64,000 bases of DNA. Origin: Planctomycetota bacterium. Lineage in GTDB: Bacteria > Planctomycetota > PLA2. Below the pieces are notes generated by a model. It was not told where the DNA came from. It ran no database searches and saw only the letters and a program-made list of their open reading frames with translations. The stretch's first letter is position 1. Every line of letters begins with the position of its first letter. Shown one piece after another: positions 5,002 through 30,405 of this stretch. Both the position numbers and the translations under genes were made by a program. The stretch lies in the NCBI GenBank assembly GCA_021776735.1, contig JAJFFH010000041.1:61553-125552 (forward strand), written 5' to 3'.

Positions 5002-5934
5002 CTACGTCCCGAGGTCCGTGGGCAGCGAGAACTGCACGCGCTCCTCGGCGACGGTCAGCTTTTCGACCGAGGTGGCGCCGTGGTGCCTCAGAGTTTCGAC
5101 GAGCTCCTGCACGAGCGTTTCGGGGGCCGATGCGCCCGCGGTGACGCCGACGGCTGTCGCCCCTTCGAGCCAGGCGGGGTCGAGATCAGCGGGGGTCTCA
5201 AGCAGGTGTGAATGCGCGCCGGCCTGGCGGGCGACCTCGACCAGCCGGTTCGAGTTCGAGGAGTTCGGCGCGCCGAGGACGAGAACGATCCCGCACTCCT
5301 TCACCATGGCCTTGACCGCGTTCTGGCGGTTTTGCGTCGCGTAGCAGATGTCTTCCTGCTTCGGGCCCGTGATCCCCGGATACTTCGCGCGCAGCGCCGC
5401 GACGATCGCCGCCGTGTCGTCCATCGAAAGCGTCGTCTGTGTGACGTAGGCGAGTTCCGTGTCCGCCGGGAGGTCGAGCGTCGCGACGTCTTCGACCTTC
5501 TCGACCAGCGCCATCGTGCCCTCGGGAACCTGGCCGAGCGTGCCTTCGACTTCGGGGTGGCCCGCGTGGCCGATCAGGATCAGGTGCCGCTCCCGGCGCG
5601 CCATCAAGTCCGCCTCGCGATGGACCTTCGTGACGAGCGGGCAGGTCGCGTCGATGTGGTTTAACCCGCGGGCGGCGGCGTCCGCGACCACGCGCTTCGC
5701 GACCCCGTGCGCTGAAAAGATCACGACCGCGCCCTCCGGAACCTCGTCGAGTTCCTCTACGAAGACGGCGCCCTTGTCGCGAAGCCGCTCGACGACATGC
5801 CGGTTGTGGACGATCTCGTGGCGCACGTAGATCGGCGCGCCGTACTTGTTGAGCGCGCACTCCACGATCTCGATCGCACGATCAACCCCCGCACAAAAAC
5901 CGCGCGGTTCGGCCAAAACGACTCGGAACGCCAT
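5002..5934 (-). CDS. ispH: 4-hydroxy-3-methylbut-2-enyl diphosphate reductase
   Basis: 310 aa. Full-length match to the IspH/LytB architecture, with the three conserved Cys ([29 protein letters not shown]) and the SAHGV and SSNSNRL motifs. Confidence 0.95.
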
Positions 5935-5992
5935 GCTCGGACTGTGGCATGGGAACCCGCGCCTGCCAAGTTTGGGGTACTCTCTGGCCGCG

Positions 5993-7171
5993 ATGTCACT
6001 TCGAATTCTCGCAGTCGCCGCGTGCCTCTTTTGTTCCTGGCATGGCCGGAACGCCGCCCTCGCGAGCGAAAAGGACGGCGGACATGCCGCCCCGCGCCGC
6101 TGGACGCACGCGCGCGGCCCGGCCGCCTACAACGGCAGGACCTTGGCCGAACCGGTGCGTTCCTGGGGCGGACCGCGGTGGACCTACCGCGCCCACGCCA
6201 AGGTGCGGGGCGTGCCGGTCACGTGGGACGGCATCGCGTTCGTCCTCGACGGCGCCGATCTCGTCGCACTCGACCTGGTGGATGGCAGCGTCTTGGCCCG
6301 CACCGCCGTCGCCGCGCGGCATCCGGAGATCGCGGTCGAGTCCCGCGCGGTCCTCGTACGCGAACAGGGCAACAGGCTGGCCCTGTTCCGCCTCGCCGAT
6401 CGCAAATTCCACCGCATCTGGAGCCATGAGTGCCAGCCGGACTCATCCGCCCCGCGCATCCTCGGCGGCGAAGTCTACTGGTGCGCGCCCGATGGCCTGC
6501 GCATGATCCGCCTCGGATCGCGCAAGCCCACATGGATCGCCGCGGGCCGGTACGCCGGCGCGCCTGCGGTGTATGGGGGCCACGTGTACGCACTGCGCGA
6601 GGACAGCGGAAAGCTGGTGCTGGCCGCGCACGACCGGGGCACCGGGAAGATCGCGGCGCGTGTTGATTTGGGGGCGGGGCGCGGTGGCGTCGTCGGCGTG
6701 TCCCAGCGCCTGGTGGCGGCGAAAGTCGGCAACGGCGAGTGGGCGTTTCTGGCCCGCCAAAGCAAAGACGGCAAGCTGACGCTCAAGTTCGGCAGCCGCC
6801 AGGACGCCAGCGGCGTTCCGCTCGTCGGCAACCGGGTCGGGATCGCGCGCACGGACGGGGGTTGGGCACTGTTGCGCTCGACCGCCGGAAAGAAGAGCCG
6901 CGTCGTGCTGATCAAGAAAAAGGACCGGCCCGAGCTGCTTGCCGGAGCCTGCAACGCCATCGCGCACCCGGGCTCCGACATCGGTTTCGGCACATGGTGC
7001 GGCGACGTTAACGCCAACACGATCCATTGGCACGCCAATGAGGGGAGGACATTGTCGGGAGGCGTCGCCTGCGCCGTCCCGGCGGGCCACCGCCGCCTGC
7101 TGATGGTGGCCGCGGACCGCAAGCAAATGGTTCTGCTCGGCCCCCGAATCATCGGGAAGCGCCTCAAGTAA
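5993..7171 (+). CDS. hypothetical secreted protein (possible beta-propeller)
   Basis: The ORF-track start at 5846 is extended. An ATG at 5993 gives a signal peptide, [18 protein letters not shown]. The body shows repeated G-x-V/hydrophobic strands consistent with PQQ-like propeller blades, but no catalytic motif was recognised. Confidence 0.5.
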
Positions 7172-7184
7172 GGAGATGGGCGTC

Positions 7185-8828
7185 ATGAAAAGCATCGCCG
7201 TCCTTGGGCTTTGTTGCTCTGCAATCCTCGCCGACAATGCCGTGCTTCGCGATCACACCGTGATCTCGGGCGGCGCCCGGCGCACCAACAACACGCTGGT
7301 AATCGGCGGACGCAAGGTGCCGCTTGACCAGGTGATCTTGTGGGAAAACAAGACGGGCATTCCCCAGCATGCGCCGACGCTTCAGGGCCACGTCGCCGGG
7401 TTGCGCGCACTCGCCGAACGCACCGTGCTCAAGACCTGCGTGGAACGGCTCCCCAAGGCCGTGTCCGCCAAGGACGGCGATGTTTGCGGACGCCTGCTCG
7501 CGCGCGCCATCGCGGCCGGCATGAACGCGGACGGCGTCGCGCGATGGAGCGCGCGCATCGAGGCCGGGGACAAGACGTCCGGGATCAAGGTGCCGGACCG
7601 CGAGGCGCTCGTCGATCTTCTGGCGGCACGCGCCCTCTCGATCCTCGACGACAACGAAGAGGACAAGCGCGGACTCGCCCTGCTGCGCGAAGCGTTGCGA
7701 CGTGACGCGAAGCACAGACAGGCACTTGAGGTGCTCGACGATTTCGCGCCGGAACGCTGGCGGGTCGGATACGCCAAGGAGGACGACATCCAGCGCGTCT
7801 GGCTCGACTGGAACATCGACGTCATCCAGCCGGGCATGCGCGCGGTCGGCTGGCGCCAGCCCGACGTGCGCAAGGCGGGTAGCGACTTTCGCTGGAAGCA
7901 GATCCGCGGCCCGCGCTCACTTCATGGGGCGCAGACCCAGGAGATCGCGTTCGTGACCGCGATGACGAACTCGAACGTCGTCGGCATGTGCACCAAGTAC
8001 GCCTGGAACTCGTGCAAGGCGCTCGACGAGATGTTTCACATCGAGAAGCCGTTGCGCGACGACAACCTGCCGCTCGTCATCTGGTTTTTTGAAAACAAGA
8101 AACAGTACCTCGACGTGAACGCGGGCCAGGGTGGGCGGCGCAACTTCCTCGCGATGACCGCGGGCTTCTATTCGCCCGGCGACAACATCTCGCGCTTTTT
8201 CTGGCCGACGAATCATCCCGCTCCGGCGCGCTCGGTGCGAGACACCTTCGTCCACGAACTGACCCACCATTGGATCCAGCGCCGCAACCCGCGGCTCGCA
8301 CCAAGCCTGCTCATGCGCAGCGTCAGCGTCCCCGGCTATTGGATCGTCGAGGGGTTCGCGACGTTCATCGAGGAAGGGCGCTACAACATCCGCACGAACG
8401 GGCGCTCGCACTTCAACGCGCACGCGAACTCGATCGACGTCATCGCAAGCCTCTCCGAGAGAGGCGAACTCATCCCGTGGCCGAAGCTGTACACGCTGTC
8501 GCAGGTCGATTTCCGCAATCCGAAAAAACTCAACCAGACCAAGCTCAGCGCGACCGCGCACAAGCGCTGGGCGACGCGCCCGCAACCGTTCCGTGCGATC
8601 CGACAGTTCTACGAACAGTCTGCCGCTACGTGCCACTACCTCTACTGGGGCGAGAAGGCCAAGTACCGCAACAAGCTGCTCGACTACGTCACCGTCTACT
8701 ACACCGCCCAGGAGGGCAAGACGGCGATCGAGGCCGCCTTCGGCATGACCGAGGAGGAACTCGGCAGACGGGTCGAGAAGTGGTGCAAGTCGGTGATCAA
8801 GAACGGCTGGCGCCCGCCGGGCGAGTAG
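7185..8828 (+). CDS. putative secreted zinc metallopeptidase (HExxH; DUF1570-like)
   Basis: The second ATG (7185) gives the signal peptide MKSIAVLGLCCSAILA, with AAGGAG 10 nt upstream. An HExxH zinc-binding motif sits in FVHELTHHW. The size and motif context resemble DUF1570 proteins. Confidence 0.6.
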   Translation: MKSIAVLGLCCSAILADNAVLRDHTVISGGARRTNNTLVIGGRKVPLDQVILWENKTGIPQHAPTLQGHVAGLRALAERTVLKTCVERLPKAVSAKDGDVCGRLLARAIAAGMNADGVARWSARIEAGDKTSGIKVPDREALVDLLAARALSILDDNEEDKRGLALLREALRRDAKHRQALEVLDDFAPERWRVGYAKEDDIQRVWLDWNIDVIQPGMRAVGWRQPDVRKAGSDFRWKQIRGPRSLHGAQTQEIAFVTAMTNSNVVGMCTKYAWNSCKALDEMFHIEKPLRDDNLPLVIWFFENKKQYLDVNAGQGGRRNFLAMTAGFYSPGDNISRFFWPTNHPAPARSVRDTFVHELTHHWIQRRNPRLAPSLLMRSVSVPGYWIVEGFATFIEEGRYNIRTNGRSHFNAHANSIDVIASLSERGELIPWPKLYTLSQVDFRNPKKLNQTKLSATAHKRWATRPQPFRAIRQFYEQSAATCHYLYWGEKAKYRNKLLDYVTVYYTAQEGKTAIEAAFGMTEEELGRRVEKWCKSVIKNGWRPPGE

Positions 8829-8919
8829 AAGCGAGGATCGACCTCGAGTAGTCGGGACAGGCTATACTCCGTCCCGATTCGAAATTGCGCGACAAACGCG
8901 CATACAGGAACGGACGGCG

Positions 8920-9489
8920 ATGCCCTTCGATTTGACGAGCTACACGATCCGGCGCAAGATCCTCACGATCCTGGGCGCCAAATTCCACGTCTACCGGCCG
9001 GATGGCTCTGTGGCGGCGTTTTCCAAGCAGAAGGCGTTCAAGCTGAAAGAGGACATTCGTCTGTTCACGGACGAGACGATGGCCACCGAACTGCTGTCGA
9101 TCCAGGCACGGCAGATTATCGACTTCGCCGCGGCCTATGATGTCGTCGATTCGGCGGAGGGACGAAAGCTCGGCGCGGCCCGGCGCAAGGGATGGTCGTC
9201 GATCTTTCGCGACTCGTGGGAGGTGCTGGACGAAGACGACCAGCCCATCGCGAAGCTGAAAGAGGACAGCGCCCTCGCGGCATTCGTACGCCGGATGATC
9301 GGCCTGATTCCCCAGACGTTCCACCTCAGGGGGATGGACGGCAAGCCGATCGCCACGTTGCGCGTGCGCTTCAACCCGTTCGTCTACAAACTGGATGTCG
9401 AGCTTGACCCGGACTGCGAACTCGATTCCCGTCTGGTCTTGGCTGTGGGCGTTCTTCTCGCGGCCATCGAGGGCCGCCAGAAGAGTTGA
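8920..9489 (+). CDS. hypothetical protein, possible LURP-one-related/tubby C-terminal-like fold
   Basis: 189 aa with balanced composition. The family call is tentative, by eye only. Confidence 0.4.
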   Translation: MPFDLTSYTIRRKILTILGAKFHVYRPDGSVAAFSKQKAFKLKEDIRLFTDETMATELLSIQARQIIDFAAAYDVVDSAEGRKLGAARRKGWSSIFRDSWEVLDEDDQPIAKLKEDSALAAFVRRMIGLIPQTFHLRGMDGKPIATLRVRFNPFVYKLDVELDPDCELDSRLVLAVGVLLAAIEGRQKS

Positions 9490-9490
9490 C

Positions 9491-9766
9491 GTGGCGCCGA
9501 CGGTCGAGTTTCACTGCGAGCACTGCGACAGCCTCTGCCGCGCGGCGAAGAGCATGGTCGGCGGCATCATCAACTGCAAGGAGTGCGGCCAGGCGACCGA
9601 AGTCCCGGGCATGAACGACCCGGCGTGGCGCATGCTAAACATGGGCGCGGTGATCTTCGTCGCGGGAATCACGACCCTGATCTACATGCGCGCCGGACCA
9701 ACTCCGGCACTGATCGTCGGCGTTGTCCTGTTCGCGCTCCTGAAGCTCCTGTCGCTCGCGCTCTGA
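9491..9766 (+). CDS. small zinc-ribbon membrane protein
   Basis: A GTG start follows the upstream stop. CEHC...CKEC forms a four-Cys zinc-ribbon, followed by two hydrophobic helices (AVIFVAGITTLIY, LIVGVVLFALLKLL). Confidence 0.45.
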   Translation: MAPTVEFHCEHCDSLCRAAKSMVGGIINCKECGQATEVPGMNDPAWRMLNMGAVIFVAGITTLIYMRAGPTPALIVGVVLFALLKLLSLAL

Positions 9767-9785
9767 ATTCCGCTACGCGGAATTC
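9765..9785. terminator. stop-codon-adjacent perfect hairpin between convergent genes (weak terminator candidate, no U-tract)
   Basis: GAATTCCGC-TAC-GCGGAATTC, a 9-bp perfect stem, begins inside the TGA of the 9491-9766 gene and faces the convergent BNR gene 3' end. Confidence 0.3.
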
Positions 9786-10078
9786 AGCAAGAACTCCAAT
9801 CCCGCTGCACGGGATTTGGCAACTGGATGAGCAGCCGGATGGTTGCGCACGACGGGTTGCCGATCCGTCCGATCTCGTCGACAAGCCGCGAAGCGACCAG
9901 CCGTCCGCCTGCACCGATCCGGCGCGACGGCCCGGACCCGCACGCGCGCCGAGGGGGTCGTCCACGGCTATTCGTTCTGCGCTACGCGGAGAACGAAAAA
10001 GGAGCGGCGCTCCGTACGAGCGCCGCCGTCTTCCGTCCATACCCTATTCTCGCGCCGTTTCTTCGGCGCCCTCGATCC

Positions 10079-11492
10079 CTATCGCCGCAGCGAAGAGTTC
10101 GCGTAGATGTCGTTTTGGCCGTTGCGGGAATCGCGCCAGACGACGTAGACCTGGTCCGCATCGATGTCGAGGCGCGGAAGCCGCGAATCCGCAGCGCCCG
10201 CCGCATCCGTATCGAGCCGGAGATCGGTGTCCCGCCAGCTCTCTCCGCCATCGGTGGTCGCCGTGAAACGAACGTCGCGGGCGCCATCGCGGGTGTCTTC
10301 CCACGTGACGTACGCGTTGTTGCCCGCCGCACGAATCTGGACAAAGTCCACACCGCCGGCAGCGCTCGCGTCCGTGTCGAGACGCAGATCGCCGTTGAAG
10401 GTCTCGGCCCGGTCGTTCGACGTGGCGACGAAGATATCGGACGTGCCGCTACGCTGATCGATCCAGGTGACGTAGACGTTGCCCTGGGCGCACGCCACGA
10501 TCGGGCGGAACGAGTTCGCCGCGCCGGCGACGTCGGTGTCGAGCCGCTGGTCGGCCACCTGCCAGGTCGTGCCGCCGTCGGTGCTGCGGTTGAAGTGAAT
10601 GTCCAACGCACCCGCGCGGTTGTCGACCCAGGCGACGTAGATGTTTTGGCCGTCGACATCGATGGCCGGATCGAACGAGAAGGCCGCACCGGCCGCGTCG
10701 GTGTCGAGGCGGACGTCGGCGGCGAGCCAGGTCGCGCCGTTGTCGGCCGACGTGTTGAAGAACACGTCGTTGTTGCCGTTGCGGTTGTCCATCCAGGTGA
10801 CATAAAGCCGCGTTCCGACGCGGGACAGGCGGGGCCGGTCGGACTGCGATGTGCCCGCGCCGTTGGCGTTGACGAGCGTCTCGTTGGTCCAGGTCACGCC
10901 GCCATCGGCGGACGAGCGAATCAGGATGTCGCGGCTGCCGTTGCGATCGTCCTCGAACAGGACGGTCAGGCTGCGGCCGTCGATCTGGCTGACCGAAACC
11001 AACGGGTCACCCGAGGCCGCGGCGCCCGCCGCGTCCTGGTCGAGCCGCACGTCGGCGCCCAGCCATGTGTTGCCACCATCGGTGGAGCGCTGGAGGCGAA
11101 TGTCCTTCTCGCCGTCACGCGCGTCTTCCCAGACAACCCAGAGGCTCTGGCCCCGGCAGGTGATCTCGGGATCGTCCGCGACCGACGCACCGGCCGCATC
11201 CGTGTTCAGGCGAACGTCCGCGGCGAGCCAGGTGCGGCCGCCGTCCGTCGACTTGTTGAAAAAGACATCGTTTTGCCCGTTGCGCACATCCACCCAGACG
11301 ACGTAGAGCACGCCGTTCGCGCAGCAAATCCGCTGCTTGGCACTTGCGGCCGCGCCGGCCACGTCAGTCTCGACGCGGACGTCGGTCGTAAGGAAGTTCT
11401 CCACAAACGCGGGCACGCCGCGGCTGCCATTGCTGCAACCGGCGATAGCGATGGCGAGCATGCTCGCCGCGATGACACCGAAACGCTTCATC
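10079..11492 (-). CDS. BNR/Asp-box repeat lipoprotein (sialidase-like beta-propeller)
   Basis: The start is trimmed to the ATG at 11492, giving MKRFGVIAASMLAIAIAGCS, a lipoprotein signal with lipobox. There are at least 6 repeats of S-x-D-G-G-x-T-W (STDGGRTW, STDGGNTW, SADGGVTW, SADNGATW, STDGGTTW, TTDGGESW). Confidence 0.75.
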
Positions 11493-11526
11493 TTGTCCTC
11501 CAGGGGTTTGCGCCCCTCAAGGGGCC

Positions 11527-12087
11527 GTGTCCGGACCCCGTATCGACGCAACGGCGTCCCGAACTAAGACGGTTTTGCAAATCGTCTCGAAACAGGCCGC
11601 GCGAAAGCGATTCGGAGGTCAATTCCCGCCGCCGTACCCCAATGATGAACGCGTGGACCAAGGGACAAGACTGAGACAGGAGTTCGTCGAGCGCGAAGAG
11701 CGCGCCCTGGCGAAAGCCGCGCTCCGCGAACACCGCAACCGGCTCAACGGTGCACTCGGCGGCGGACTCGCGGGCTTCGCCGCCGCCATCTCAACGGCAG
11801 CCGTCACGCGCCAGGCGATCCTGTGGCACTCCTTCGTCCTCGAAGCAACGCTGGGCGCGTGCGCGGGCTACCTTCTCGCGCGCCGCGGCGGCGGACTGCT
11901 CGTCGGCGTCGCCCTCTTCGTCGGCTCGTACGTTCTCGCCTTCCAAATCCGCGCCTCGGGCTTCGATCCGAGCGTCCTGTTCGCACCCGGCGACCTACGC
12001 GTCGCCATGGCCAGCCAAGGCCACCTCATGTCGATCGGCGTGCTGATCACCTGCGGCGGACTGCTCGGCCACATCATGGAGGACTAG
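11527..12087 (+). CDS. hypothetical membrane protein (start uncertain)
   Basis: The C-terminal two-thirds has Gly/Ala-rich TM helices (GGGLAGFAAAISTAAV, LLVGVALFVGSYVLAF). The ATG at 11527 lies only 35 bp from the divergent BNR gene start, so a later GTG near 11654 is an alternative. Confidence 0.4.
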   Translation: MSGPRIDATASRTKTVLQIVSKQAARKRFGGQFPPPYPNDERVDQGTRLRQEFVEREERALAKAALREHRNRLNGALGGGLAGFAAAISTAAVTRQAILWHSFVLEATLGACAGYLLARRGGGLLVGVALFVGSYVLAFQIRASGFDPSVLFAPGDLRVAMASQGHLMSIGVLITCGGLLGHIMED

Positions 12088-12204
12088 TCCGAGAATCCGC
12101 ATGGCGGATTCTCGATAGTCCGGGCCGGGTGCGGCTTCGCCGCTCGCGGCCCCACCCGAACCCGAACCCGAACCCGAACATGAGCGTGAATCGCCGTCCG
12201 TTTG

Positions 12205-12654
12205 CTACAGCTCTCCGTTGATCGCGTAACGCAAGAGCTGCACGACCTGTTCCGGTGTTTGCGCGACCGCGAGGGCGGCGCGATCGACTTCCTTTAGGGC
12301 GTGGGTGTGTTCCTCGGGGTGCAGAACGATCAGCGGTTTTCCCAGGGCCGCGGCGTAGCCGGCGTCGAACGCGGCGTTCCATTGGCGGTACTTCTCGCCG
12401 AAGCGGACCACGACGATGTCGGCCTTGCCGAGCAGCGTGCGCGTCCGCAGAGCGTTCACGCCCGCGCCCTTGTGGTCCTTCCAGGCGCCCTGATCCTCCG
12501 CGCCGAGGATGTGGACGCCGCAATCGTCGCTGGACGGGTGGTCGGTGACCGGCGCCGTCAGGGTGACCCGAAGTTCATGCGCGCGCACGCCCTCCGCGAT
12601 GCGGTCCCGCCAGTCCGTGTGGATCTCGCCGGAGAGATAGACATTCAGATGCAT
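12205..12654 (-). CDS. YtoQ family protein (nucleoside 2-deoxyribosyltransferase-like fold)
   Basis: The start is trimmed to MHLNVYLSGEIHTDWRDRI..., the typical YtoQ N-terminus. It is ~150 aa. Confidence 0.6.
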   Translation of the reverse strand: MHLNVYLSGEIHTDWRDRIAEGVRAHELRVTLTAPVTDHPSSDDCGVHILGAEDQGAWKDHKGAGVNALRTRTLLGKADIVVVRFGEKYRQWNAAFDAGYAAALGKPLIVLHPEEHTHALKEVDRAALAVAQTPEQVVQLLRYAINGEL

Positions 12655-12673
12655 GGCCCTATTCTGCGGTTCC

Positions 12674-13054
12674 ATGAGAGTTTCCCTCCTCGCCGCCTTC
12701 CCGCTTGCCGCGCTTCCGCTCGTCGCCCTCTTCGCCGCGTGCACCGAGGAATCCCCCACCCCGAAGGGACGGCCGGTCGTCCGGTACTACGAACTCAGCA
12801 AGATGTGACCGTACTGCCGAGAGGTCGTGGTCACGATCAACAAGCTCAAGATCAGCCCGAAGTGGAAGGACAAGGTCGATTTTGAGATCGTCCCCGCGAA
12901 GAGCGACGAGGGCGAAGCGGCGGTCACCCGCCATGGATGGCAGGCCCGGCACGGACTCGAGCTCATGCACGGGGACCGCGCGCTGGGCAACCTCGATGGC
13001 CACAGCTACGGCCAGGAGCAGATCGAAGCCTTGCTCGGGAAACACGTCCGCTGA
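12674..13054 (+). CDS. candidate selenoprotein: exported glutaredoxin-like lipoprotein with an in-frame UGA (Sec) in a U-P-Y-C motif
   Basis: The ATG at 12674 gives the lipoprotein signal MRVSLLAAFPLAALPLVALFAAC. It continues ...VVRYYELSKM-[TGA 12806-12808]-PYCREVVVTINKL..., in frame with the downstream 75-codon ORF (12827-13054). U-P-Y-C is the glutaredoxin CPYC active site with Sec in place of Cys. An imperfect hairpin (GUGACC...GAGA...GGUCAC, 12805-12834) starts at the UGA. Confidence 0.5.
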
Positions 13055-15294
13055 AACCGAACCGCGTTGCCGTCGTCGAACGAAACCTCGACGACTACCT
13101 CGCTCGCGCCCGCACGGCTGCGCCGCTTGCGCCCGGCGACCCGCTGCGTCCGGGAAGCGGCCTGTCGGCGCGCGCGGCCGTGCGTCTCTTCGAGGCGCAG
13201 GTTCTCTCGCGCTGCCTCGATGTCACCGCGCGTGAGCTCAAGGCGAAGGGCGCCGGCTACTACACGATCGCCAGCGCCGGACACGAACAAAACGCGGTCG
13301 TCGGCGCACGGGTTCGCCCCACCGACCCGTCGTTTCTGCACTACCGGTCCGGCGCCTTCATGATGGCGCGCGCGATGCAGGTTCCGGGCGCCACCCCGGT
13401 GTTCGACACCCTGCTCAGCCTCTGCGCCTCGTCGGACGATCCCATCGCGCAGGGCCGCCACAAGGTCTGGGGCAGCCGGCAACTCTGGGTGCCGCCGCAG
13501 ACGAGCACGATCGCGTCGCATTTGCCGAAAGCGGTCGGCTGCGCGTTCTCGATCGGCCGCGGGCGACGGCTAGGGATCGATCCCGGCGTGCCGGCGGACG
13601 CGCTGGTGTGCTGCACGTTCGGGGACGCTTCGGCCAACCACGCCAGCGCGCTGGCAGGCATCAACTCGGCTCGGTATGCACACCGCCGCGGCAACCCGGT
13701 GCCGATCCTGTTTGTCTGCGAGGACAACGGTATCGGCATCTCGGTGGAAACGCCGCGCCGCTGGATTCACGACGCCTTCGGCGATCTCGCGCATCTGCGC
13801 TACGTCGAAGCGGACGGCGAACTCGACGACGTGCATGACGCGGTCGCACAGGCCGTGGAGTTTTGCCGCGCGCATCGCGCCCCGGTCTTTTTGCACCTGC
13901 GCTGCCTGCGTCTTTGGGGCCATGCGGGCAGCGACATCGAGACGGCGTACCGCGCGCAAACGGAAATCGAGGCGATCGAGGGCCGCGACCCGCTGTTGCG
14001 CAACGCGCGCCGCCTGATCGAAACCGGCGCCGCCGATCCGGCCACACTGCGCGCGATCCTGCAGGACACCCGCGCGCGCGTAGCCGCCGCCGCCGAAGAA
14101 GCTGCCACGCGTCCGCACCTGACAACGCGCACACAGATCATGGCCCCGCTCGCGCCGTTCGACGAGGCGCGGTGCCGCGAAGACGGCGCGGGCACGGCGA
14201 GCGAACAGGCGCGCCGCGACCTGTGGGGCCAAACCCCGCCGGAAAAAGCGACCGCACCGACCAAACGCACGCTCGCCGCCCACATCAACGCCGCCCTCGC
14301 GGACGAGATGGCGCGTCGCCCGGAAATCGTCGTGTTCGGCGAGGACGTCGGCAAAAAAGGCGGGGTCTACTACGTAACGGCGGGGCTGCAGCGCCGCTTC
14401 GGCATCGCCCGCGTGTTCGACACCCTCCTGGATGAGACAACAGTCCTCGGCGTCGCCCAGGGCGCCGCGCACGTCGGCCTCCTGCCGATCCCGGAAATCC
14501 AGTACGTCGCGTATCTGCACAACGCCATCGACCAGTTGCGCGGCGAAGCCTCGTCGCTCTCGTTTTTCTCCAACGGCCAGTTCCAAAACCCGATGGTCGT
14601 GCGCATCGCGGGCCTCGCCTACCAAAAAGGCTTCGGCGGCCACTTCCACAACGACAACTCGATCGGCGCACTCCGCGACATCCCGGGCCTGATCCTCGCC
14701 ACGCCGTCCCGCGGCGACGACGCCGCCAAAATGCTGCGCGGCTGCATCGCTCTCGCCCGCACCTGCGGCCGCGTCGTGTGTTTTTTGGAACCGATCGCGC
14801 TCTACCACCAAAAAGACCTCTACGAAGACGGCGACGGCCGCTGGCTGACCGACTACCCCCCGCCCGGCGATATCCTCTTGCCCGGCGAAGTGCAGGTGTA
14901 CGGAGAAAACGCAGCGGACAAAAAGCAAACGGACGGCGATACCCCCGGCGATATCCTGGTCGTGACGTATGCGAACGGCGTGCGCCTGAGCCTGCGCGCG
15001 ACACGCCGCTCGGCGAACGCCCAAAACATCGCCGTTCTTGACTGTCGCTGGCTCAACCCGCTGCCCCTCGCGGCGATTCGCGCCGCGGCGAAGGGCAAGC
15101 GCAAGGTCGTGGTCGTCGATGAATGCCGCGCGACTGGCGGCGGCATCGCGGACGCGGTCATCGCCGATCTCGCGGAGCACGGCTACAAGGGCGAACTCAC
15201 CTCGGTGCGCGCCGCCGACTGTTTCGTGCCGCTCGGTCCGTCCACGGACGCGATCCTCGTGACCGAAGAACAGATCGAGGAGGCGCTCGCGTGA
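13051..15294 (+). CDS. TPP-dependent 2-oxoacid dehydrogenase E1 component, fused alpha-beta subunits (start uncertain)
   Basis: Alpha part: the TPP motif FGDASANHASALAGINSARY...VLFVCEDNGIGIS. Beta part: EIVVFGEDVGKKGGVYYVTAGLQRRFGIARVFDTLLDETTVLGVAQGAAHVGLLPIPEIQYVAYL. There is no ATG/GTG/TTG in frame after the upstream stop. Candidate starts are a CTG at 13051, overlapping the upstream TGA as CTGA, or the ATG at 12937, which would overlap the upstream gene by 118 nt. Confidence 0.8.
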   Translation: MKPNRVAVVERNLDDYLARARTAAPLAPGDPLRPGSGLSARAAVRLFEAQVLSRCLDVTARELKAKGAGYYTIASAGHEQNAVVGARVRPTDPSFLHYRSGAFMMARAMQVPGATPVFDTLLSLCASSDDPIAQGRHKVWGSRQLWVPPQTSTIASHLPKAVGCAFSIGRGRRLGIDPGVPADALVCCTFGDASANHASALAGINSARYAHRRGNPVPILFVCEDNGIGISVETPRRWIHDAFGDLAHLRYVEADGELDDVHDAVAQAVEFCRAHRAPVFLHLRCLRLWGHAGSDIETAYRAQTEIEAIEGRDPLLRNARRLIETGAADPATLRAILQDTRARVAAAAEEAATRPHLTTRTQIMAPLAPFDEARCREDGAGTASEQARRDLWGQTPPEKATAPTKRTLAAHINAALADEMARRPEIVVFGEDVGKKGGVYYVTAGLQRRFGIARVFDTLLDETTVLGVAQGAAHVGLLPIPEIQYVAYLHNAIDQLRGEASSLSFFSNGQFQNPMVVRIAGLAYQKGFGGHFHNDNSIGALRDIPGLILATPSRGDDAAKMLRGCIALARTCGRVVCFLEPIALYHQKDLYEDGDGRWLTDYPPPGDILLPGEVQVYGENAADKKQTDGDTPGDILVVTYANGVRLSLRATRRSANAQNIAVLDCRWLNPLPLAAIRAAAKGKRKVVVVDECRATGGGIADAVIADLAEHGYKGELTSVRAADCFVPLGPSTDAILVTEEQIEEALA

Positions 15295-24047: not shown

Positions 24048-24638
24048 CTACGGCAGCTTCGCGACCGCGAGCACCTTCGTCGGCGGGCCGCCCTTGGCTC
24101 CGCCCTGCGGTTCCAGCGAGACGGCAAAAGCATCGCCGTCCGTGAGCTGTTTCACGGTGATCTCTCGCTCTTTGACGATCCCGAGGCTGATCGGCTTGCC
24201 ATTGCGGATGCGCCAGAGTTCGTAGTCGCGGCCCGGCGGCGGTTGCAGCTTGTCGAAGGTCACGACCGCGCGGCTCGCGTAGAACGTGACGTGGCCGAGG
24301 CCCGCGAGCGGGATGTCGATGCCGCGTTCCTGCTCGTCGCGCGGAGTGAGAAACAAGAACAGCGCGGCGGCGGCGGCCGTCGTGGCGAGGGCGATCAGCA
24401 ACAGCCGGCGGCGGCGCGGGGGGCGGGTCGCTTGCAGGACACGCGTGCGTAGTTCCGGGGGCGGCGCGGCGACCGGCGCGGTCATCGCCAGCAGCAGGAC
24501 CGCCTCGTCGAGTTCCTGCGTTTCCGGATCGACGAAGTCGCGGGCCAGGAACGTGTCGAGCTCGGACTGCTCCGCGGCGTCGAGCGCGCCGAGCGCATGG
24601 CCCGCGTACAGTTCGAGGAAGCGCTCGCGCTCGCTCAT
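24048..24638 (-). CDS. anti-sigma factor (RskA-like: N-terminal sigma-binding helix, TM, C-terminal anti-sigma-K-like domain)
   Basis: The start is trimmed to MSERERFLELYAGHALGALDAAEQSELDTFLARD. A TM helix (LLLIALATTAAAAALFLFL) follows. The ATG overlaps the stop of the ECF sigma gene. Confidence 0.7.
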   Translation of the reverse strand: MSERERFLELYAGHALGALDAAEQSELDTFLARDFVDPETQELDEAVLLLAMTAPVAAPPPELRTRVLQATRPPRRRRLLLIALATTAAAAALFLFLTPRDEQERGIDIPLAGLGHVTFYASRAVVTFDKLQPPPGRDYELWRIRNGKPISLGIVKEREITVKQLTDGDAFAVSLEPQGGAKGGPPTKVLAVAKLP

Positions 24639-25147
24639 GACGCGGCCTCTCCGGCGAGCCGTTCGCGCAGCGCGAGCAGGCCGCGGCGGCACCACGTCTT
24701 CACGGTGCCGAGCGGGTAACGGGTGTGCGCGGCGACTTCCGACTGGGTCATGCCCTCAAAAAACGCAAGCTCCAACACCTCGCGCCAGCGCGGGTCGATC
24801 TCTTCGAGCGCCCGGCGGACACGGGCGTGACGCTGCACGTCATCCAGACGTTGCACGGGGTCCTGCGAGGGTCTCGGTACGGGCGCGGGCATCGAGGATT
24901 CCGCCCGCCGACGCGAATTCAAGCTGCGCCGACGGTCCAAGGCACGTGAACGCACCATCGTGACGAGCCAAGCGGCGGGCGTGCCACGCTTCGGATTGAA
25001 CAGATCGCGCGTGCGCCACCACTGCAACCAGACCTGCTGCAACACGTCCGCGGCATCCGCGGGCTCCCCGAGAATGCGCAACGCGACGCCATACAGCATG
25101 CCGCCATACCGGTCGTACAAATCAGCAGTCGCTTCACTCGGGACCAT
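24635..25147 (-). CDS. ECF-family RNA polymerase sigma-70 factor
   Basis: 170 aa. Region 2 is YDRYGGMLYGVALRILGEPADAADVLQQVWLQWWR, and region 4 is VLELAFFEGMTQSEVAAHTRYPLGTVKTWCRRGL. Confidence 0.85.
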   Translation of the reverse strand: MVPSEATADLYDRYGGMLYGVALRILGEPADAADVLQQVWLQWWRTRDLFNPKRGTPAAWLVTMVRSRALDRRRSLNSRRRAESSMPAPVPRPSQDPVQRLDDVQRHARVRRALEEIDPRWREVLELAFFEGMTQSEVAAHTRYPLGTVKTWCRRGLLALRERLAGEAAS

Positions 25148-26594: not shown

Positions 26595-27125
26595 CTAGTC
26601 CACAAGTTCGTTGTGGATTGAGGCGGTGACCAGCAGCGTGCAGCCGCCCTTGGTCGAAAGCGGGCCGTGTTCTGTGCCTTCTTCGAAGCGGGAGTAGTCG
26701 CCCGCCTTCATGTCCAGACTGCCGTCCTTGAGGTCGCCGGAGACGACGTAGCACTCCTCGGCGCCCGCGTGGCGGTGGCAGGGGTAGGCGGCGCCGGGTT
26801 CCATGCGCACGAGCACCGTCTGCTGGTCGGATTCGTCGTCGCGGTGCAGGACGCACACTTCTACGCCGGGGACGCCGGTCGGGACCCAGTCGGCGTTGTC
26901 GTGGCGGACCACCGTGAGGCCGCGCCGGGCGCGTCGGACCACGCGGACGCGCAGGCTCGCGGGCGGCTCGGCTTCGGGGGCGGCGTGGACAAACTGGTCC
27001 GAGGCGCGCCGGAACTCTTCGACTTCACGACGCAGTTCCGGATCGGTGCGCATCGCGCGCTCGAACGCGGCGGTCTCTTCGGGGCTGAGCGCCCCCAGGG
27101 CGTAGAGCTCTAGATGATCTCTCAC
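26595..27125 (-). CDS. ChrR-like anti-sigma factor (N-terminal ZAS-like helix domain plus C-terminal cupin)
   Basis: The GTG start overlaps the upstream sigma gene stop (GTGA). The N-terminus is HLELYALGALSPEETAAFERAM. The C-terminal cupin is VLHRDDESDQQTVLVRMEPGAAYPCHRHAGAEECYVVSGDL. Confidence 0.75.
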   Translation of the reverse strand: MRDHLELYALGALSPEETAAFERAMRTDPELRREVEEFRRASDQFVHAAPEAEPPASLRVRVVRRARRGLTVVRHDNADWVPTGVPGVEVCVLHRDDESDQQTVLVRMEPGAAYPCHRHAGAEECYVVSGDLKDGSLDMKAGDYSRFEEGTEHGPLSTKGGCTLLVTASIHNELVD

Positions 27126-27697
27126 AACTGCACCTCGGCCAGAACGCCGCGCAGTTGGCGCATGCCGGTCCGGATTCTGGTCTTGACGGTGCCCAGCGGC
27201 TCGCCGCGCGCCTCGGCGACCTGCGAATACGACAGGCCCTTGAAGTACGCGGCTTCGATGCACTCGCGCTGCTCGGGAGGCAACGCACCGACGGCGGCGC
27301 GGACCAGCGTGGCCGCCTCGCCTGCTGCGGACACCTCGTCGGGACGCGGCGCCGCGTCCACAAAGGCCGCGCTGTCTTCCAGCACGGTTTCGCGGTCGGC
27401 ACGCCGGCGTTTCTTGCGCAGGTGGTCCAGCGCACGCGAGCGGGTAATCGTCAGCAGCCACGTCAAGGGGCTGCCGCGCTCGCCATCGAAGCTGTCCGCC
27501 TTGCGCCAGACCTGGTCATAGGCGTCGAGCGTGGCTTCCTCGGCCGAGGCGGCGTCGCCGACGATACGCAGCGCGAGACCGAACGCGCGCCGGCGGGTCT
27601 TGTCGTAGAACTCCGCGAGCGCGTCCGGATCCCCCGCGGCCATACGCCGCAGGTACCCGCCGAGCACTTGAAATTCGTCGTTCAAACCGAGCCACAT
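27122..27697 (-). CDS. ECF-family RNA polymerase sigma-70 factor
   Basis: The start is trimmed to MWLGLNDEFQVLGGYLRRMAAGDPDALAEFYDKTRRRAFGLALRIVGDAASAEEATLDAYDQVWR (region 2). Region 4 is CIEAAYFKGLSYSQVAEARGEPLGTVKTRIRTGM. Confidence 0.8.
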   Translation of the reverse strand: MWLGLNDEFQVLGGYLRRMAAGDPDALAEFYDKTRRRAFGLALRIVGDAASAEEATLDAYDQVWRKADSFDGERGSPLTWLLTITRSRALDHLRKKRRRADRETVLEDSAAFVDAAPRPDEVSAAGEAATLVRAAVGALPPEQRECIEAAYFKGLSYSQVAEARGEPLGTVKTRIRTGMRQLRGVLAEVQL

Positions 27698-27899
27698 CCT
27701 AAAGAACCTACGCCGGGGCCTTGGGATCGGATTGCGCTTTTTTTCTTGGATTTCCGCCAAATCCGGAGGCGCCGCTGCCGCGTAGTCACCAGCGTTCCCG
27801 CCCCGCGAGCGGGGCAACCGGTGTGGCCACCGAACGCAACTCACCCTTTCCCCCGACCCCCCAAAACCAATCGGGTCAAAGACCCCACGAATCAGAACC

Positions 27900-29348: not shown

Positions 29349-29350
29349 CC

Positions 29351-29569
29351 GTGAAAAAGCTCGCCCTTCTTCTCGCTCTCGCCGCCGCCGGATGCAGCTC
29401 CGGCGGCGGCGCCCAAGCCCCCAACGGGCAGGCGACACAGGTCAGCCTCCCGCAGTTTGTCCGCGATCTGGTCGCCGCGACCGCTGACGACACCGACCCC
29501 GTCGACCTCACCAACGTCGAGGTCCTCGACATCGACACCCTGGACGACTTCTCGGACCTCTTGCAATGA
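29351..29569 (+). CDS. small acidic lipoprotein
   Basis: The GTG start sits 3 nt after the DUF4331 stop. MKKLALLLALAAAGCSSGG carries a lipobox. It is 72 aa. Confidence 0.45.
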   Translation: MKKLALLLALAAAGCSSGGGAQAPNGQATQVSLPQFVRDLVAATADDTDPVDLTNVEVLDIDTLDDFSDLLQ

Positions 29570-30405
29570 CCCGAGTCGTCGTCCTGCTCCTTCTGGCCGT
29601 TCCCGCACTCCCCCACGAGTTCTGGATCGAGCCGGACCAATTCAACACCGAGCCGGGCCAGTTGGTCCGGCTCGGACTTCGGGTAGGCGACGGCTATCCC
29701 GGCGAAGCCTACGCCCGCAACCCGCGTCACGTCCGCCGTTTTTTTGTCCGCGAGGCGGGCCAGGACATCGCTGTCCCGGGCCGACCCGGTGCCAACCCCG
29801 CGGGAGCCGTCAGGCTGACGCGTCCCGGCCTCGCGGTCGTCGGCTACCGCAGCCACGCGACCCGCATCGAACTCCCGGCCAAGAAGTTCAACGCCTACCT
29901 TGCCGAAGAGGGCCTGACCCAAATCATCGCCGTCCGTAAGCTACGGGGCGAACTGAACAAACCCGGACGGGAGCTGTTCTCGCGCTGCGCGAAATCACTG
30001 ATCGCCTGCGGGCACGGCAAGGGCCTCGACCAACGCCTCGGACTCGAGCTCGAACTCGTCGCCGACGCCAACCCGGTCCGCATGCTCGCAGGCGCCACAC
30101 TCCCGGTGCGGCTGTTCTTAAAAGGCAAGCCGCTCCCACGCGCGCTCGTCCTCGCGTTCCGCCATGGCGAGTCGAAGCCGGCGCTTCGAGTGCGCACCGA
30201 CAAGGCCGGCCGCGCCCGGCTCGACCTTTCCGGCGGCCGCTGGCTGATCAGCGCGGTCCACATGCGCCCGGCGGCCAAGGGGTCGAACGCGGACTGGGAG
30301 AGCCTCTGGGCATCCCTGACGTTTCAGCGCAAGGCGAAGCGGAAGAAACCTGCGAAGCGCGAAAACCCAGCGAAGCGCGAAAAACCGCGGGCGAAAGCAA
30401 ATTAG
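29566..30405 (+). CDS. DUF4198-like periplasmic protein
   Basis: The start overlaps the upstream stop (ATGA). After the signal peptide, the HEFWIEPDQF start is typical of DUF4198 proteins. The lysine-rich C-terminal tail is KAKRKKPAKRENPAKREKPRAKAN. Confidence 0.55.
   Translation: MTRVVVLLLLAVPALPHEFWIEPDQFNTEPGQLVRLGLRVGDGYPGEAYARNPRHVRRFFVREAGQDIAVPGRPGANPAGAVRLTRPGLAVVGYRSHATRIELPAKKFNAYLAEEGLTQIIAVRKLRGELNKPGRELFSRCAKSLIACGHGKGLDQRLGLELELVADANPVRMLAGATLPVRLFLKGKPLPRALVLAFRHGESKPALRVRTDKAGRARLDLSGGRWLISAVHMRPAAKGSNADWESLWASLTFQRKAKRKKPAKRENPAKREKPRAKAN

What the first reader, a model, noticed from the sequence alone, without database searches (positions are those of the whole stretch)
12674..13054. 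In-frame UGA inside a glutaredoxin-type U-P-Y-C motif: candidate selenocysteine-containing exported glutaredoxin at the head of an operon
An ATG at 12674 opens a 44-codon stretch encoding a lipoprotein signal peptide (MRVSLLAAFPLAALPLVALFAAC). It runs ...RPVVRYYELSKM, a TGA at 12806-12808, then continues in the same frame as PYCREVVVTINKLKISPKWKDKVDFEIVPAKSD...HGLELMHGDRALGNLDG...IEALLGKHVR.

Reading TGA as Sec gives U-P-Y-C, the canonical glutaredoxin CPYC active site with the N-terminal Cys replaced by Sec. The flanking pattern fits a Grx/NrdH fold: a beta-strand VVRYY before the motif, V-x-F-E-I after it, and a G-x-x-x-G-x-L-D-G turn.

A signal peptide followed by a stop and then a thioredoxin-fold protein that lacks its redox motif would make little sense, while the read-through product is a coherent ~126 aa exported redox protein. 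An imperfect hairpin (GUGACC-N18-GGUCAC, with an inner CC-GAGA-GG tetraloop) begins at the UGA, where bacterial SECIS elements sit. The alternative GTG start at 12827 has its only Shine-Dalgarno candidate (GAGAGG) just 2 nt away, which is too close.
Basis: partly seen in the sequence, partly recalled or inferred. Interest (0 to 1): 0.8.

Follow-up and report, generated by a model that had tools for sequence, protein, structure and literature searches.

The report
New selenocysteine thioredoxin-fold lipoprotein gene
The "stop" codon at 12806 almost certainly encodes selenocysteine in the active site of a small, lipid-anchored, exported redox protein; this protein family is nearly always made with selenium and is missed by gene callers and by current selenoprotein catalogues.

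Summary
ATG 12674 opens a frame with a lipoprotein signal peptide, an in-frame TGA at 12806-12808, then P-Y-C and 78 more codons to TGA 13052.

Comparative evidence makes selenocysteine (Sec) the only reasonable reading:
- Twelve independent lineages (28-64% identical) keep TGA at exactly this column. All read U-P-[FYH]-C, or U-G-R-C in one paralogue. All have a signal peptide and an invariant lipobox Cys upstream in the same frame.
- One homologue has TGC there (CPFC).
- An AlphaFold model of the Cys form is a minimal thioredoxin fold, with the U/CxxC at the start of helix 1.
- Every Sec lineage has a hairpin with bacterial SECIS geometry. In sister clades it shows compensatory changes.
- In the window the best candidate is GGUCGU-GGUC-ACGAUC (12823-12838). 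Its GGUC loop lies 20 nt after UGA, against 18 nt in E. coli fdhF.

It is not a glutaredoxin by family tests. It matches no Pfam or NCBIfam model, including the catalogued selenoprotein models. Invariant HG and GH motifs replace the glutaredoxin/thioredoxin signatures.

No sel genes or tRNA-Sec lie in the window, and the rest of the genome could not be searched.

Verdict: a real, previously uncatalogued family within the well-known class of thioredoxin-fold UxxC selenoproteins.

The parts
12638..12665 (+). Promoter-like site TAGACA-16 nt-TATTCT. The -10 box ends 8 nt before ATG 12674, so the mRNA is probably leaderless or nearly so.
   Evidence: 9 of 12 matches, with 0.0 expected in shuffles. 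Both hexamers are identical in L001. Only 19 nt separate the divergent YtoQ start (12654) from ATG 12674.
12674..13054 (+). Complete selenoprotein gene: 126 codons including Sec45, plus the stop TGA 13052-13054.
   Evidence: The frame and peptide are conserved on both sides of the TGA in 12 lineages.
12674..12742 (+). Lipoprotein signal peptide MRVSLLAAFPLAALPLVALFAA, ending in the lipobox Cys23 (12740-12742).
   Evidence: The Cys column is invariant in all 12 aligned full-length sequences and is preceded by A, G or S.
12806..12808 (+). In-frame UGA read as selenocysteine (Sec45).
   Evidence: TGA sits at the same alignment column in window, L001/L006, L010, L012, L014 (two paralogues), L017, L018, L019, L020, L022 and L023. 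L011 has TGC there.
12806..12817 (+). Redox motif U-P-Y-C (family consensus U-P-[FYH]-C).
   Evidence: P46 and C48 are invariant. In the model of the Cys form the motif lies at the N-terminal end of helix 1.
12823..12838 (+). Best SECIS candidate: GGUCGU / loop GGUC / ACGAUC, with 20 nt between the UGA and the loop.
   Evidence: The stem pairs are kept in L001 (A-U in place of G-U) and in L010 (U-G in place of U-A). The geometry fits the consensus quoted. The E. coli fdhF loop is also GGUC, 18 nt after its UGA. The stem alone is weak: -4.6 kcal/mol, matched by 28-29% of random positions.
12805..12834 (+). It is an alternative fold, mutually exclusive with the SECIS candidate above.
   Evidence: -13.9 kcal/mol, z = -2.4. 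It is kept in L001 and, with a U-G pair, in L010, but I saw no equivalent in the other clades (by eye, sequences). Its loop is only 11 nt from the UGA, against 16-37 nt in the consensus.
12950..12955 (+). Invariant His93-Gly94 at the start of strand 3, the position held by the cis-Pro in thioredoxins and glutaredoxins.
   Evidence: The cis-Pro equivalence is inferred from the standard thioredoxin-fold topology.
12998..13003 (+). Invariant Gly109-His110 in the loop after strand 4.
13057..15294 (+). Downstream gene: a fused alpha/beta E1 component of a TPP-dependent 2-oxoacid dehydrogenase. Its start codon is unresolved.
   Evidence: Pfam E1_dh, Transket_pyr and Transketolase_C. The synteny is conserved in L001, L006, L007, L008 and L010. 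The conserved N-terminal peptide begins 2 nt after the Sec-gene stop.
12205..12654 (-). Divergent neighbour: YtoQ-type nucleoside 2-deoxyribosyltransferase-like protein.
   Evidence: Pfam PF11071, E = 3.5e-65. It holds the same position in L001, L006 and L010.

Best explanation
Positions 12674-13054 are one gene for a 126-residue selenoprotein.

How it is made (inferred from the established bacterial Sec pathway):
- Transcription probably starts a few bases before, or at, the ATG, from the TAGACA/TATTCT promoter.
- At UGA 12806 the elongation factor SelB, carrying Sec-tRNA(Sec), is recruited by a hairpin in the next ~35 nt and inserts selenocysteine instead of terminating. The most likely hairpin is GGUCGU-GGUC-ACGAUC (12823-12838). 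The overlapping GUGACC...GGUCAC fold is the alternative.
- The product is exported. It is lipid-modified and cleaved at Cys23, which leaves a membrane-anchored protein on the outer face of the cytoplasmic membrane or in the periplasm.

What it does (inferred from fold and motif):
- The mature part is a minimal thioredoxin fold (b1-a1-b2-a2-b3-b4-a3). Sec45-Pro-Tyr-Cys48 sits at the N-terminus of helix 1, so Sec holds the exposed, attacking position of a CxxC thiol-disulfide oxidoreductase.
- It most likely reduces or isomerises disulfides, or other oxidised S/Se species, in the cell envelope through a selenenyl-sulfide intermediate.
- Two invariant histidines (H93, H110) flank the active site. 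They either tune the site or bind a metal together with Sec and Cys.

What is shown and what is not:
- Shown: the gene structure, the conservation of the TGA, the Cys homologue, the predicted fold, the lipobox, and the conserved hairpins.
- Inferred: SelB/SECIS recognition, the export route, the catalytic role, and the substrate, which is unknown.
For: 1. TGA conservation. Twelve independent lineages from different samples and sources carry TGA at the same column, flanked by conserved peptide ([VIL]-x-[YF]-Y-x-[ILW]-x-x-x-U-P-[FYH]-C); alignment.

2. Sec/Cys pair. P0011/L011 has TGC there, in a full-length 142-aa lipoprotein with CPFC.

3. Database picture. An exhaustive HMMER search of 1.84 billion representatives with the 81 C-terminal residues found 12 relatives. 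Eleven are 61-87-aa calls that begin just after the motif, and the only full-length one is the Cys form. Seven of those eleven truncated calls were traced to their contigs (P0002, P0004, P0007, P0008, P0009, P0012, P0013, P0014 minus none: eight look-ups covering P0002, P0004, P0007-P0009 and P0012-P0014); in every locus examined the missing N-terminus lies upstream of a TGA. P0005, P0006 and P0010 were not looked up.

4. Coding signal on both sides of the TGA: GC3 is 0.84 and 0.88.

5. TGA is otherwise a normal stop here. The E1 and sigma-70 genes end at TGA with complete Pfam domains, and no other credible in-frame TGA exists in the window.

7. SECIS.
- All 11 tested lineages have a hairpin with the consensus geometry: 3-9 nt loop, G in the first two loop positions, 16-37 nt from the UGA.
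- Their stabilities exceed background: Fisher p = 0.001 over all 11, and p = 0.004-0.02 with one lineage per clade.
- In the sister clades, 4 of 7 stem pairs show compensatory changes; 81.6% of cells are paired against 37-49% in slid controls; 0 of 500 shuffles reach the covariation score.
- In the window's clade, synonymous sites across the hairpin are fully conserved in the comparisons with L010 (5/5 and 6/6, against about 58% elsewhere).

8. One contig (L014) carries two Sec-containing paralogues.
Against: - No selA, selB, selD or tRNA-Sec lies in the 64-kb window or in any related locus. The rest of the genome could not be searched.
- The window's own SECIS candidate is weak taken alone. 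It is -4.6 kcal/mol for the stem, against the consensus whole-element threshold of -7.5, and 28-29% of random positions do as well. Two mutually exclusive hairpins compete for the same bases.
- Only one Cys homologue was found.
- The structure was predicted for the Cys homologue, at 30% to 36% identity depending on the alignment, not for the window protein itself.
- There is no experimental evidence of selenium incorporation.
Confidence: 0.86

Rival explanations
1. UGA 12806 is read through, but not as selenocysteine. A near-cognate tRNA (Trp or Cys) or some other local recoding event fills the position, so the protein is an ordinary thiol protein made at low yield.
For: The Sec machinery was not found in the window. 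UGA followed by C is a leaky termination context (own knowledge), and the C is conserved because of the Pro codon.
Against: - The UGA aligns with the catalytic Cys of a CxxC motif and with a TGC homologue, which is the hallmark of Sec/Cys pairs (criterion as used in PMC1088965).
- Keeping a leaky stop at a catalytic residue in 12 lineages, when a single mutation to TGC or TGT would give full yield, is implausible.
- Conserved and covarying hairpins at SECIS distance have no role in this model.
Confidence: 0.07
2. There are two separate products. One is a short 44-aa signal-peptide ORF that ends at TGA 12806. The other is a 75-aa protein starting at GTG 12827, as annotated in public records. 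Alternatively the gene is a pseudogene.
For: Gene callers in NCBI, JGI, ENA and Logan all call it this way.
Against: - The called downstream starts differ between lineages and fall inside a conserved helix.
- The 75-aa product would lack strand 1 and the whole active site of the fold.
- The Cys homologue is one continuous protein.
- The upstream peptide, the lipobox and the P-x-C between the TGA and the called start are conserved at protein level.
- A pseudogene would not keep the same single TGA and both open frames in 12 lineages.
Confidence: 0.03
3. The TGA is a sequencing or assembly error for TGC or TGT.
For: None beyond the general possibility.
Against: The identical sequence appears in an independent Logan assembly (L004). 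TGA occurs at this site in assemblies from at least 10 unrelated samples.
Confidence: 0.005
4. UGA is reassigned genome-wide, as in genetic code 4 or code 25.
For: TGA is unusually rare as a stop among the window's confident genes: 4 of 18.
Against: Genes with complete Pfam domains end at TGA, including E1, the sigma-70 factor and the 2-hydroxyacid dehydrogenase. No other gene in 64 kb has an in-frame TGA. The selenoprotein gene itself ends in TGA.
Confidence: 0.01

Closest known systems
Thioredoxin-fold UxxC selenoproteins of bacteria, e.g. Sec-thioredoxin, Sec-glutaredoxin, thiol:disulfide interchange protein, and the DsbG-like / Rcas_1661 family thioredoxin-like (seleno)lipoprotein, as listed in Table 1 of PMC13188914
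   Same: Sec holds the N-terminal position of a UxxC motif at the start of helix 1 of a thioredoxin fold. A hairpin lies in the coding sequence just after the UGA. A Cys-containing homologue exists. Like the Rcas_1661 family, it is a lipoprotein.
   Different: - No Pfam or NCBIfam model of any of these families reaches its cut-off. The best is 16 bits against 140; NF041057 scores 11.9 against 190, and only over the signal peptide.
- The signatures are distinct: invariant H-G in place of the cis-Pro, and G-H-x-[YFW]-G after strand 4.
- Sec forms outnumber Cys forms about 12 to 1. The usual pattern is many Cys homologues and sporadic Sec forms (abstract of PMC1088965).
Glutaredoxin (PF00462), CPYC type
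   Same: It has the minimal b-a-b-a-b-b-a topology without the N-terminal extension of thioredoxin. The window protein reads U-P-Y-C. Eight of 12 members give weak sub-threshold Pfam hits (best E = 0.01).
   Different: It scores below the gathering threshold. The family motif is UPFC or UPHC. It lacks the TVP cis-Pro and the GG-x-x-D glutathione-binding motifs (own knowledge of glutaredoxin motifs, set against the alignment). It is exported as a lipoprotein, whereas classical glutaredoxins are cytoplasmic. The best structural matches are thioredoxins.
Archaeal and thermophile glutaredoxin-like protein disulfide oxidoreductases and small redoxins (PDB 1a8l, 1j08, 1nho, 1fo5)
   Same: These are the closest solved relatives by sequence profile, aligned across the CxxC, helix 1 and strand 2.
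   Different: The E-values are only marginal (0.002-0.02). Those proteins are cytoplasmic and Cys-only, and some have two domains.
E. coli fdhF SECIS element
   Same: Both are hairpins inside the coding sequence with a GGUC apical loop, 18 nt (fdhF) or 20 nt (window) after the UGA.
   Different: The stem sequence is unrelated. No bulged U is evident. SelB binding is untested. A competing hairpin overlaps it.
Sco/SenC-type thioredoxin-fold copper proteins
   Same: Both are membrane-anchored thioredoxin-fold proteins of the envelope in which a Cys pair plus histidine could form a metal site (resemblance recalled from own knowledge).
   Different: Sco has CxxxC and a single distal His. No sequence or specific structural match was found here. 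This is a lead only.

Membership tests
Bacterial selenoprotein gene (UGA = Sec) | In-frame UGA conserved at the same position in orthologues, with coding conservation on both sides | tested here: met
   12 lineages, 28-64% identical downstream of the site; the upstream lipobox and strand 1 are conserved.
Bacterial selenoprotein gene (UGA = Sec) | Cys-containing homologue with Cys aligned to the UGA | tested here: met
   P0011/L011 has TGC in CPFC. Only one such homologue was found. PMC1088965 asked for at least two when screening new families.
Bacterial selenoprotein gene (UGA = Sec) | bSECIS hairpin downstream of the UGA: loop 3-9 nt, stem 4-16 bp, G in the first two loop positions, 16-37 nt spacing, MFE <= -7.5 kcal/mol | tested here: inconclusive
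   The geometry is met in the window (12823-12838) and in all 11 tested lineages. The window's stem energy alone is -4.6, and 28-29% of random sites do as well. The sister clades give strong hairpins (-8.4 to -13.2) with covariation.
Bacterial selenoprotein gene (UGA = Sec) | selA, selB, selD and tRNA-Sec present in the genome | not testable with these tools
   None in the 64-kb window or in related loci. The genome is not in the searchable genome collection.
Bacterial selenoprotein gene (UGA = Sec) | Selenium shown in the protein (75Se labelling or mass spectrometry) | not testable with these tools
   This needs an experiment.
Thioredoxin-fold superfamily | b-a-b-a-b-b-a core with CxxC at the N-terminus of helix 1, and structural similarity to thioredoxins | tested here: met
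Thioredoxin-fold superfamily | cis-Proline before strand 3 | tested here: not met
   An invariant His-Gly occupies this place.
Glutaredoxin (PF00462) | Score at or above the Pfam gathering threshold | tested here: not met
   13.5 bits against 22.9 for the window protein. The best of the 12 members has E = 0.01.
Glutaredoxin (PF00462) | CPYC-type active site together with the TVP and GG glutathione-binding motifs | tested here: not met
   U-P-Y-C occurs only in the window; the family reads U-P-F-C, U-P-H-C or U-G-R-C. HG[LF] and GHx[YFW]G stand where the TVP and GG motifs would be.
Catalogued prokaryotic selenoprotein families (NCBIfam and Pfam models in Table 1 of PMC13188914) | Match to the family's model above its curated cut-off | tested here: not met
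   Six members were scanned against NCBIfam release 20. The best scores were TrxA 16.2 vs 140, TsoX 13.4 vs 52, SaoT 12.7 vs 65 and Rcas_1661 11.9 vs 190. Pfam gave nothing above threshold.
Bacterial lipoprotein | N-terminal signal peptide ending in a lipobox [LVI..]-x-[AGS]-C | tested here: met
   The window reads LFAAC. The Cys is invariant, with A, G or S at position -1, in all 12 aligned sequences. This is a pattern check only; no dedicated predictor was available.

The most novel reading that the evidence does not exclude
This is not just another selenium version of a thiol oxidoreductase. It is a family that is selenoprotein by default. In it, Sec45, Cys48 and the two invariant histidines (H93 in place of the cis-Pro, H110 after strand 4) would form a Se/S/N2 metal- or metalloid-binding site on the outer face of the membrane, for example for copper, mercury or selenium/tellurium handling.

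In the window's clade there is a second possibility. The downstream E1 dehydrogenase has no canonical start codon after the selenoprotein's stop. Its translation may depend on ribosomes that have successfully decoded the UGA, which would make E1 expression depend on selenium supply.
Probability: 0.15. Interest if true: 0.75.

Novelty: new member of a known kind. Interest (0 to 1): 0.58.

Why it matters
- It adds a family to the prokaryotic selenoproteome that current pipelines miss. In all eleven truncated database entries found, the protein is cut to a 61-87-aa fragment that lacks its active site. No Pfam or NCBIfam model covers it.
- Sec forms outnumber Cys forms about twelve to one. This family therefore appears to need selenium rather than merely tolerate it, which makes it a useful case for asking what Sec does that Cys cannot.
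- It is an envelope lipoprotein. That places selenium chemistry outside the cytoplasm, where few bacterial selenoproteins are known.
- Practically, the alignment made here could seed a family model, so that annotation pipelines call these genes correctly.

Tried and rejected
- The genome-contig scan with the family alignment gave one hit, in Xanthomonas cissicola. Reading it showed an out-of-frame chance match inside an rRNA methyltransferase gene. It was rejected. The scan also shows that the window's genome and its relatives are not among the species representatives.
- The first metagenome scan with the 13-sequence alignment failed because no stretch was conserved enough. A narrower alignment gave two new loci.
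- A look-up of the window's YtoQ protein, meant to identify the source assembly, found nothing.
- A literature search for the sample and assembly accessions found nothing, so the organism remains unidentified.
- I tested whether L012 (GCA_021776825.1; same sequencing run as the window's Logan copy) is a paralogue from the same genome. GC is 0.698 against 0.663, and the tetranucleotide correlation is 0.92 against 0.98 within the window. It is probably a different organism, so it does not count as a second selenoprotein of this genome.
- I searched the window for other selenoprotein candidates. The only other TGAs with coding-like flanks appear to be antisense-frame artefacts.
- Rfam and ARAGORN on the window found nothing.
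- The afdb50 structure library was unavailable.
- A final profile search for annotated or Cys-containing relatives returned only the same truncated entries, all unnamed.
- I considered ATG 12937, overlapping the selenoprotein gene, as the E1 start. It was rejected as a general solution because L010 has a stop in that frame 9 codons before the selenoprotein's stop.
Full report
**1. The observation**

- ATG 12674 opens MRVSLLAAFPLAALPLVALFAAC TEESPTPKGRPVVRYYELSKM. TGA follows at 12806-12808.
- The same frame continues PYCREVVVTINKLK...LLGKHVR to TGA 13052-13054.
- GTG 12827 lies 2 nt after GAGAGG.
- GUGACC (12805-12810) pairs with GGUCAC (12829-12834). That 34-nt hairpin folds at -13.9 kcal/mol, z = -2.4.
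- Third-position GC is coding-like on both sides of the TGA: 0.84 upstream and 0.88 downstream.
- A scan of all six frames of the 64-kb window looked for TGAs flanked by coding-like frames. It returned this site and four others that I read as antisense-frame artefacts.

**2. Relatives and the TGA**

- A first word-indexed search found only two database entries. Both are 75-aa calls from the downstream start.
- An exhaustive HMMER search of 1.84 billion cluster representatives used the 81 residues after the TGA. It found 12 relatives. Eleven are 61-87-aa fragments that begin shortly after the motif. One, P0011, is a full-length 142-aa protein.
- In every Sec-type locus an ORF with a signal peptide and lipobox lies immediately upstream, in the same frame, and ends in TGA. 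After the TGA come P-[FYH]-C and the rest of the domain:
  - L001/L006: ...PVVRYYQINEQ*PFCRK
  - L010: ...PVVRFYVWSKT*PFCQK
  - L012: ...ELRYYVIGPQ*PFCQR
  - L014: ...RIEYYEISKR*PFCAS
  - L017: ...RIEYYEISKR*PHCQR
  - L018: ...RVVYYVISEA*PFCTK
  - L019: ...EVRYYVIGDA*PFCQK
  - L020: ...EIRFYTLSET*PFCMK
  - L022: ...ELVYYELSKS*PHCQT
  - L023: ...RVEYYEISKK*PFCAR

- A family HMM run over six-frame translations of all loci found a second paralogue on L014, also with TGA (...YSRVSPG*GRCNM).
- P0011/L011 has TGC at the same column (IVYYELNEV-C-PFC).
- In the 12-sequence alignment the invariant columns are the initiator Met, the lipobox Cys, Tyr39, the U/C column, Pro46, Cys48, His93-Gly94 and Gly109-His110.
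- This meets the standard comparative criterion for a selenoprotein: a conserved in-frame TGA, a Sec/Cys pair, and conserved flanks. It is the criterion used in PMC1088965. I found only one Cys homologue, where that study asked for two.

**3. Alternatives to Sec**

- *Sequencing error.* Excluded. An independent assembly has the identical sequence (L004), and TGA recurs in at least ten unrelated samples.
- *Genome-wide reassignment of UGA.* Excluded. Genes with complete Pfam domains end at TGA (E1, sigma-70 and others), and no other in-frame TGA is seen.
- *Two separate genes, or a pseudogene.* This does not fit. The conserved P-x-C and helix 1 residues lie between the TGA and the called starts. 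The called starts differ between lineages. The Cys form is one continuous protein. The 75-aa product would lack strand 1 and the active site.
- *Read-through by a near-cognate tRNA.* Not formally excluded, but it does not explain twelve lineages keeping a stop at a catalytic residue, nor the conserved hairpins.

**4. Fold and family**

- AlphaFold2 on P0011 with a 10-row alignment gave pLDDT 84, with most of the domain above 90 (10-residue block means 87-98).
- The element order is strand 47-52, helix 58-73, strand 79-84, helix 88-97, strands 105-109 and 115-120, helix 126-137. This is the minimal thioredoxin fold, with Cys57/Cys60 at the N-terminus of helix 1.
- A sequence profile of the family reaches PDB entries only marginally. 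The best are the Pyrococcus protein disulfide oxidoreductase and a glutaredoxin-like protein, at E = 0.002-0.004.
- Pfam gives nothing above threshold. Glutaredoxin scores 13.5 bits against 22.9, and eight of 12 members give sub-threshold Glutaredoxin hits.
- NCBIfam release 20 contains the models used to name catalogued selenoproteins. It gives nothing near a cut-off.
- The 2026 review PMC13188914 lists 119 prokaryotic selenoprotein families and subfamilies with their model accessions. None of those models matches.
- The NCBI record itself carries the 75-aa truncated call.
- I therefore file this as a thioredoxin-fold UxxC selenoprotein of a family not yet catalogued. I do not file it as a glutaredoxin.
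- The invariant His-Gly sits where thioredoxins and glutaredoxins have the cis-Pro. The invariant Gly-His sits in the strand 4 / helix 3 loop. From the general architecture of the fold, both positions border the CxxC. This last point is an inference, because I could not measure distances in the model.

**5. SECIS**

- The consensus quoted in PMC13188914 has five parts: a 3-9 nt apical loop, a 4-16 bp upper stem, a G in the first two loop positions, 16-37 nt between UGA and loop, and MFE <= -7.5.
It is present only in the window clade (window, L001 and, with a U-G pair, L010). I saw no equivalent in the other clades by eye.
- A scripted search for the consensus geometry found, in the window clade:
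  - window: GGUCGU-GGUC-ACGAUC, 12823-12838, 20 nt spacing
  - L001: GAUCGU-GGUC-ACGAUC
  - L010: GAUCGU-GGUC-GCGAUC
  Both sequence differences keep pairing.
- In the other clades the search found:
  - L012: GGCCGC-CGUGC-GCGGUC
  - L020: GGCCGC-CGUGC-GCGGCC
  - L014: GCGUGCC-GUC-GGCACGC
  - L018: AGGUCGCC-GUG-GGCGACCU
  - L019: CGCC-GUG-GGCG
  - L022: CCGC-CGUGC-GCGG
  - L017: AGCGCAU-CGUGC-AUGCGCU
  - L023: GCGCAU-CGUGA-AUGCGC

- The pattern is permissive in GC-rich DNA. In the window, 28% of random positions reach -4.6 kcal/mol and 7% reach -8.4.
- Against each locus's own background, the combined probability is 0.001 for all 11 lineages. It is 0.004-0.02 with one lineage per clade.
- For the seven codon-aligned sequences of the sister clades:
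  - 4 of 7 stem pairs show changes on both sides;
  - 81.6% of cells pair, against 37-49% when the partner is slid;
  - no shuffle out of 500 reaches the covariation score.
- Seven sequences is a small sample.
- In the window clade, identical amino acids across the hairpin always use identical codons in the comparisons with L010 (5/5 and 6/6), against about 58% in the rest of the gene.
- I confirmed that the E. coli fdhF sequence TGACACGGCCCATCGGTTGCAGGTCTGCACC is present in 5,419 of 5,426 E. coli genomes, under fdhF. Its GGUC loop is 18 nt after the UGA, and by my scoring its contiguous upper stem is worth only -2.0 kcal/mol. So the weak energy of the window's stem does not disqualify it.
- Which of the two overlapping hairpins in the window is the functional one remains open.

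**6. Context**

- A promoter-like TAGACA-16-TATTCT lies at 12638-12665 (0.0 expected in shuffles) and is conserved in L001. Its -10 box ends 8 nt before the ATG. There is no Shine-Dalgarno sequence, and only 19 nt separate the gene from the divergent YtoQ gene. The mRNA is therefore probably leaderless.
- In the window clade the neighbours are conserved: YtoQ on the opposite strand, then the selenoprotein, then a fused E1 dehydrogenase component, then a 330-aa unknown and a CPBP/Rce1-like protein.
- In other clades the neighbours differ. They include CarboxypepD_reg-like proteins, PAP2, HSP90 and a two-component sensor. No partner is shared across the family, and the substrate cannot be deduced from context.

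**7. What could not be done**

- No sel gene or tRNA-Sec lies in the window or in the related loci.
- The source genome is not in the searchable genome collection and could not be identified.
- This is the main gap. It is the reason confidence stops at about 0.86.

**8. Verdict**

- The gene encodes an exported, lipid-anchored, thioredoxin-fold selenoprotein with Sec in the attacking position of U-P-Y-C.
- It belongs to a rare family that is nearly always Sec-containing, is absent from Pfam, NCBIfam and the 2026 catalogue, and is truncated in every Sec-type database entry found.
- Within the field this is a new member of a well-known kind, not a new mechanism. It is worth reporting and modelling, but it is not a surprise to a selenoprotein specialist.

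Noticed in passing
window 13051-13180 (also L001 1755-1815 and L010 836-971): The E1 dehydrogenase gene has no canonical start codon where its conserved protein begins.
- The conserved peptide P[ND]RVAVVERNLD.YLA... starts 2 nt after the selenoprotein's stop, in the -1 frame, in three lineages.
- Substitutions there are biased to third codon positions (16 of 30, and 11 of 19), so the stretch looks coding.
- The first ATG, GTG or TTG is a GTG about 41 codons later, inside the conserved region.
- In L010 the E1 frame has a stop 9 codons before the selenoprotein's stop, so an overlapping upstream start is not general.
- Possible explanations are a non-canonical start (CTG 13051; ATA in L010) or termination-reinitiation coupled to the selenoprotein.
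   Followed up: partly
window 12638-12673: The promoter-like TAGACA-16-TATTCT ends 8 nt before ATG 12674. The 19-nt spacer between the divergent YtoQ gene and the selenoprotein gene is nearly identical in L001. This suggests a leaderless transcript, with the -35 element lying inside the YtoQ coding sequence.
   Followed up: partly
whole window (18 Pfam-supported genes): Stop-codon usage is TAG 11, TGA 4, TAA 3. This is unusual for a 66% GC genome, where TGA normally dominates (own knowledge). Related loci from other organisms are TGA-rich. The sample is small and the cause is unknown.
   Followed up: partly
L014 1697-1975: The contig that carries the L014 family member also has a second paralogue of the family. 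It has its own in-frame TGA (motif U-G-R-C instead of U-P-F-C), a lipobox LVFLGAC, and a CGCCGC-CGUGC-GCGGUG hairpin. The two copies flank three large genes with faint CarboxypepD_reg-like hits.
   Followed up: partly
L011 948-1106: Directly after the only Cys-form gene there is a second copy in tandem. It shows a signal peptide and lipobox LLLAAGC before being cut by the contig end, so whether it is Sec or Cys is unknown.
   Followed up: no
window 5002-12654 compared with L006 760-8476: Gene order is conserved between the window and L006, a metagenome contig with 72% GC: LytB/IspH, a PQQ_2/BamB-like protein, two unknowns, a BNR/sialidase-like protein, an unknown, then YtoQ. This marks L006 as a fairly close relative of the unidentified source organism.
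   Followed up: no
window 27122-30405: An ECF-type sigma factor gene lies next to DUF4331 and DUF4198 genes, and an RskA-like anti-sigma factor lies at 24048-24695. These are unrelated to the finding.
   Followed up: no
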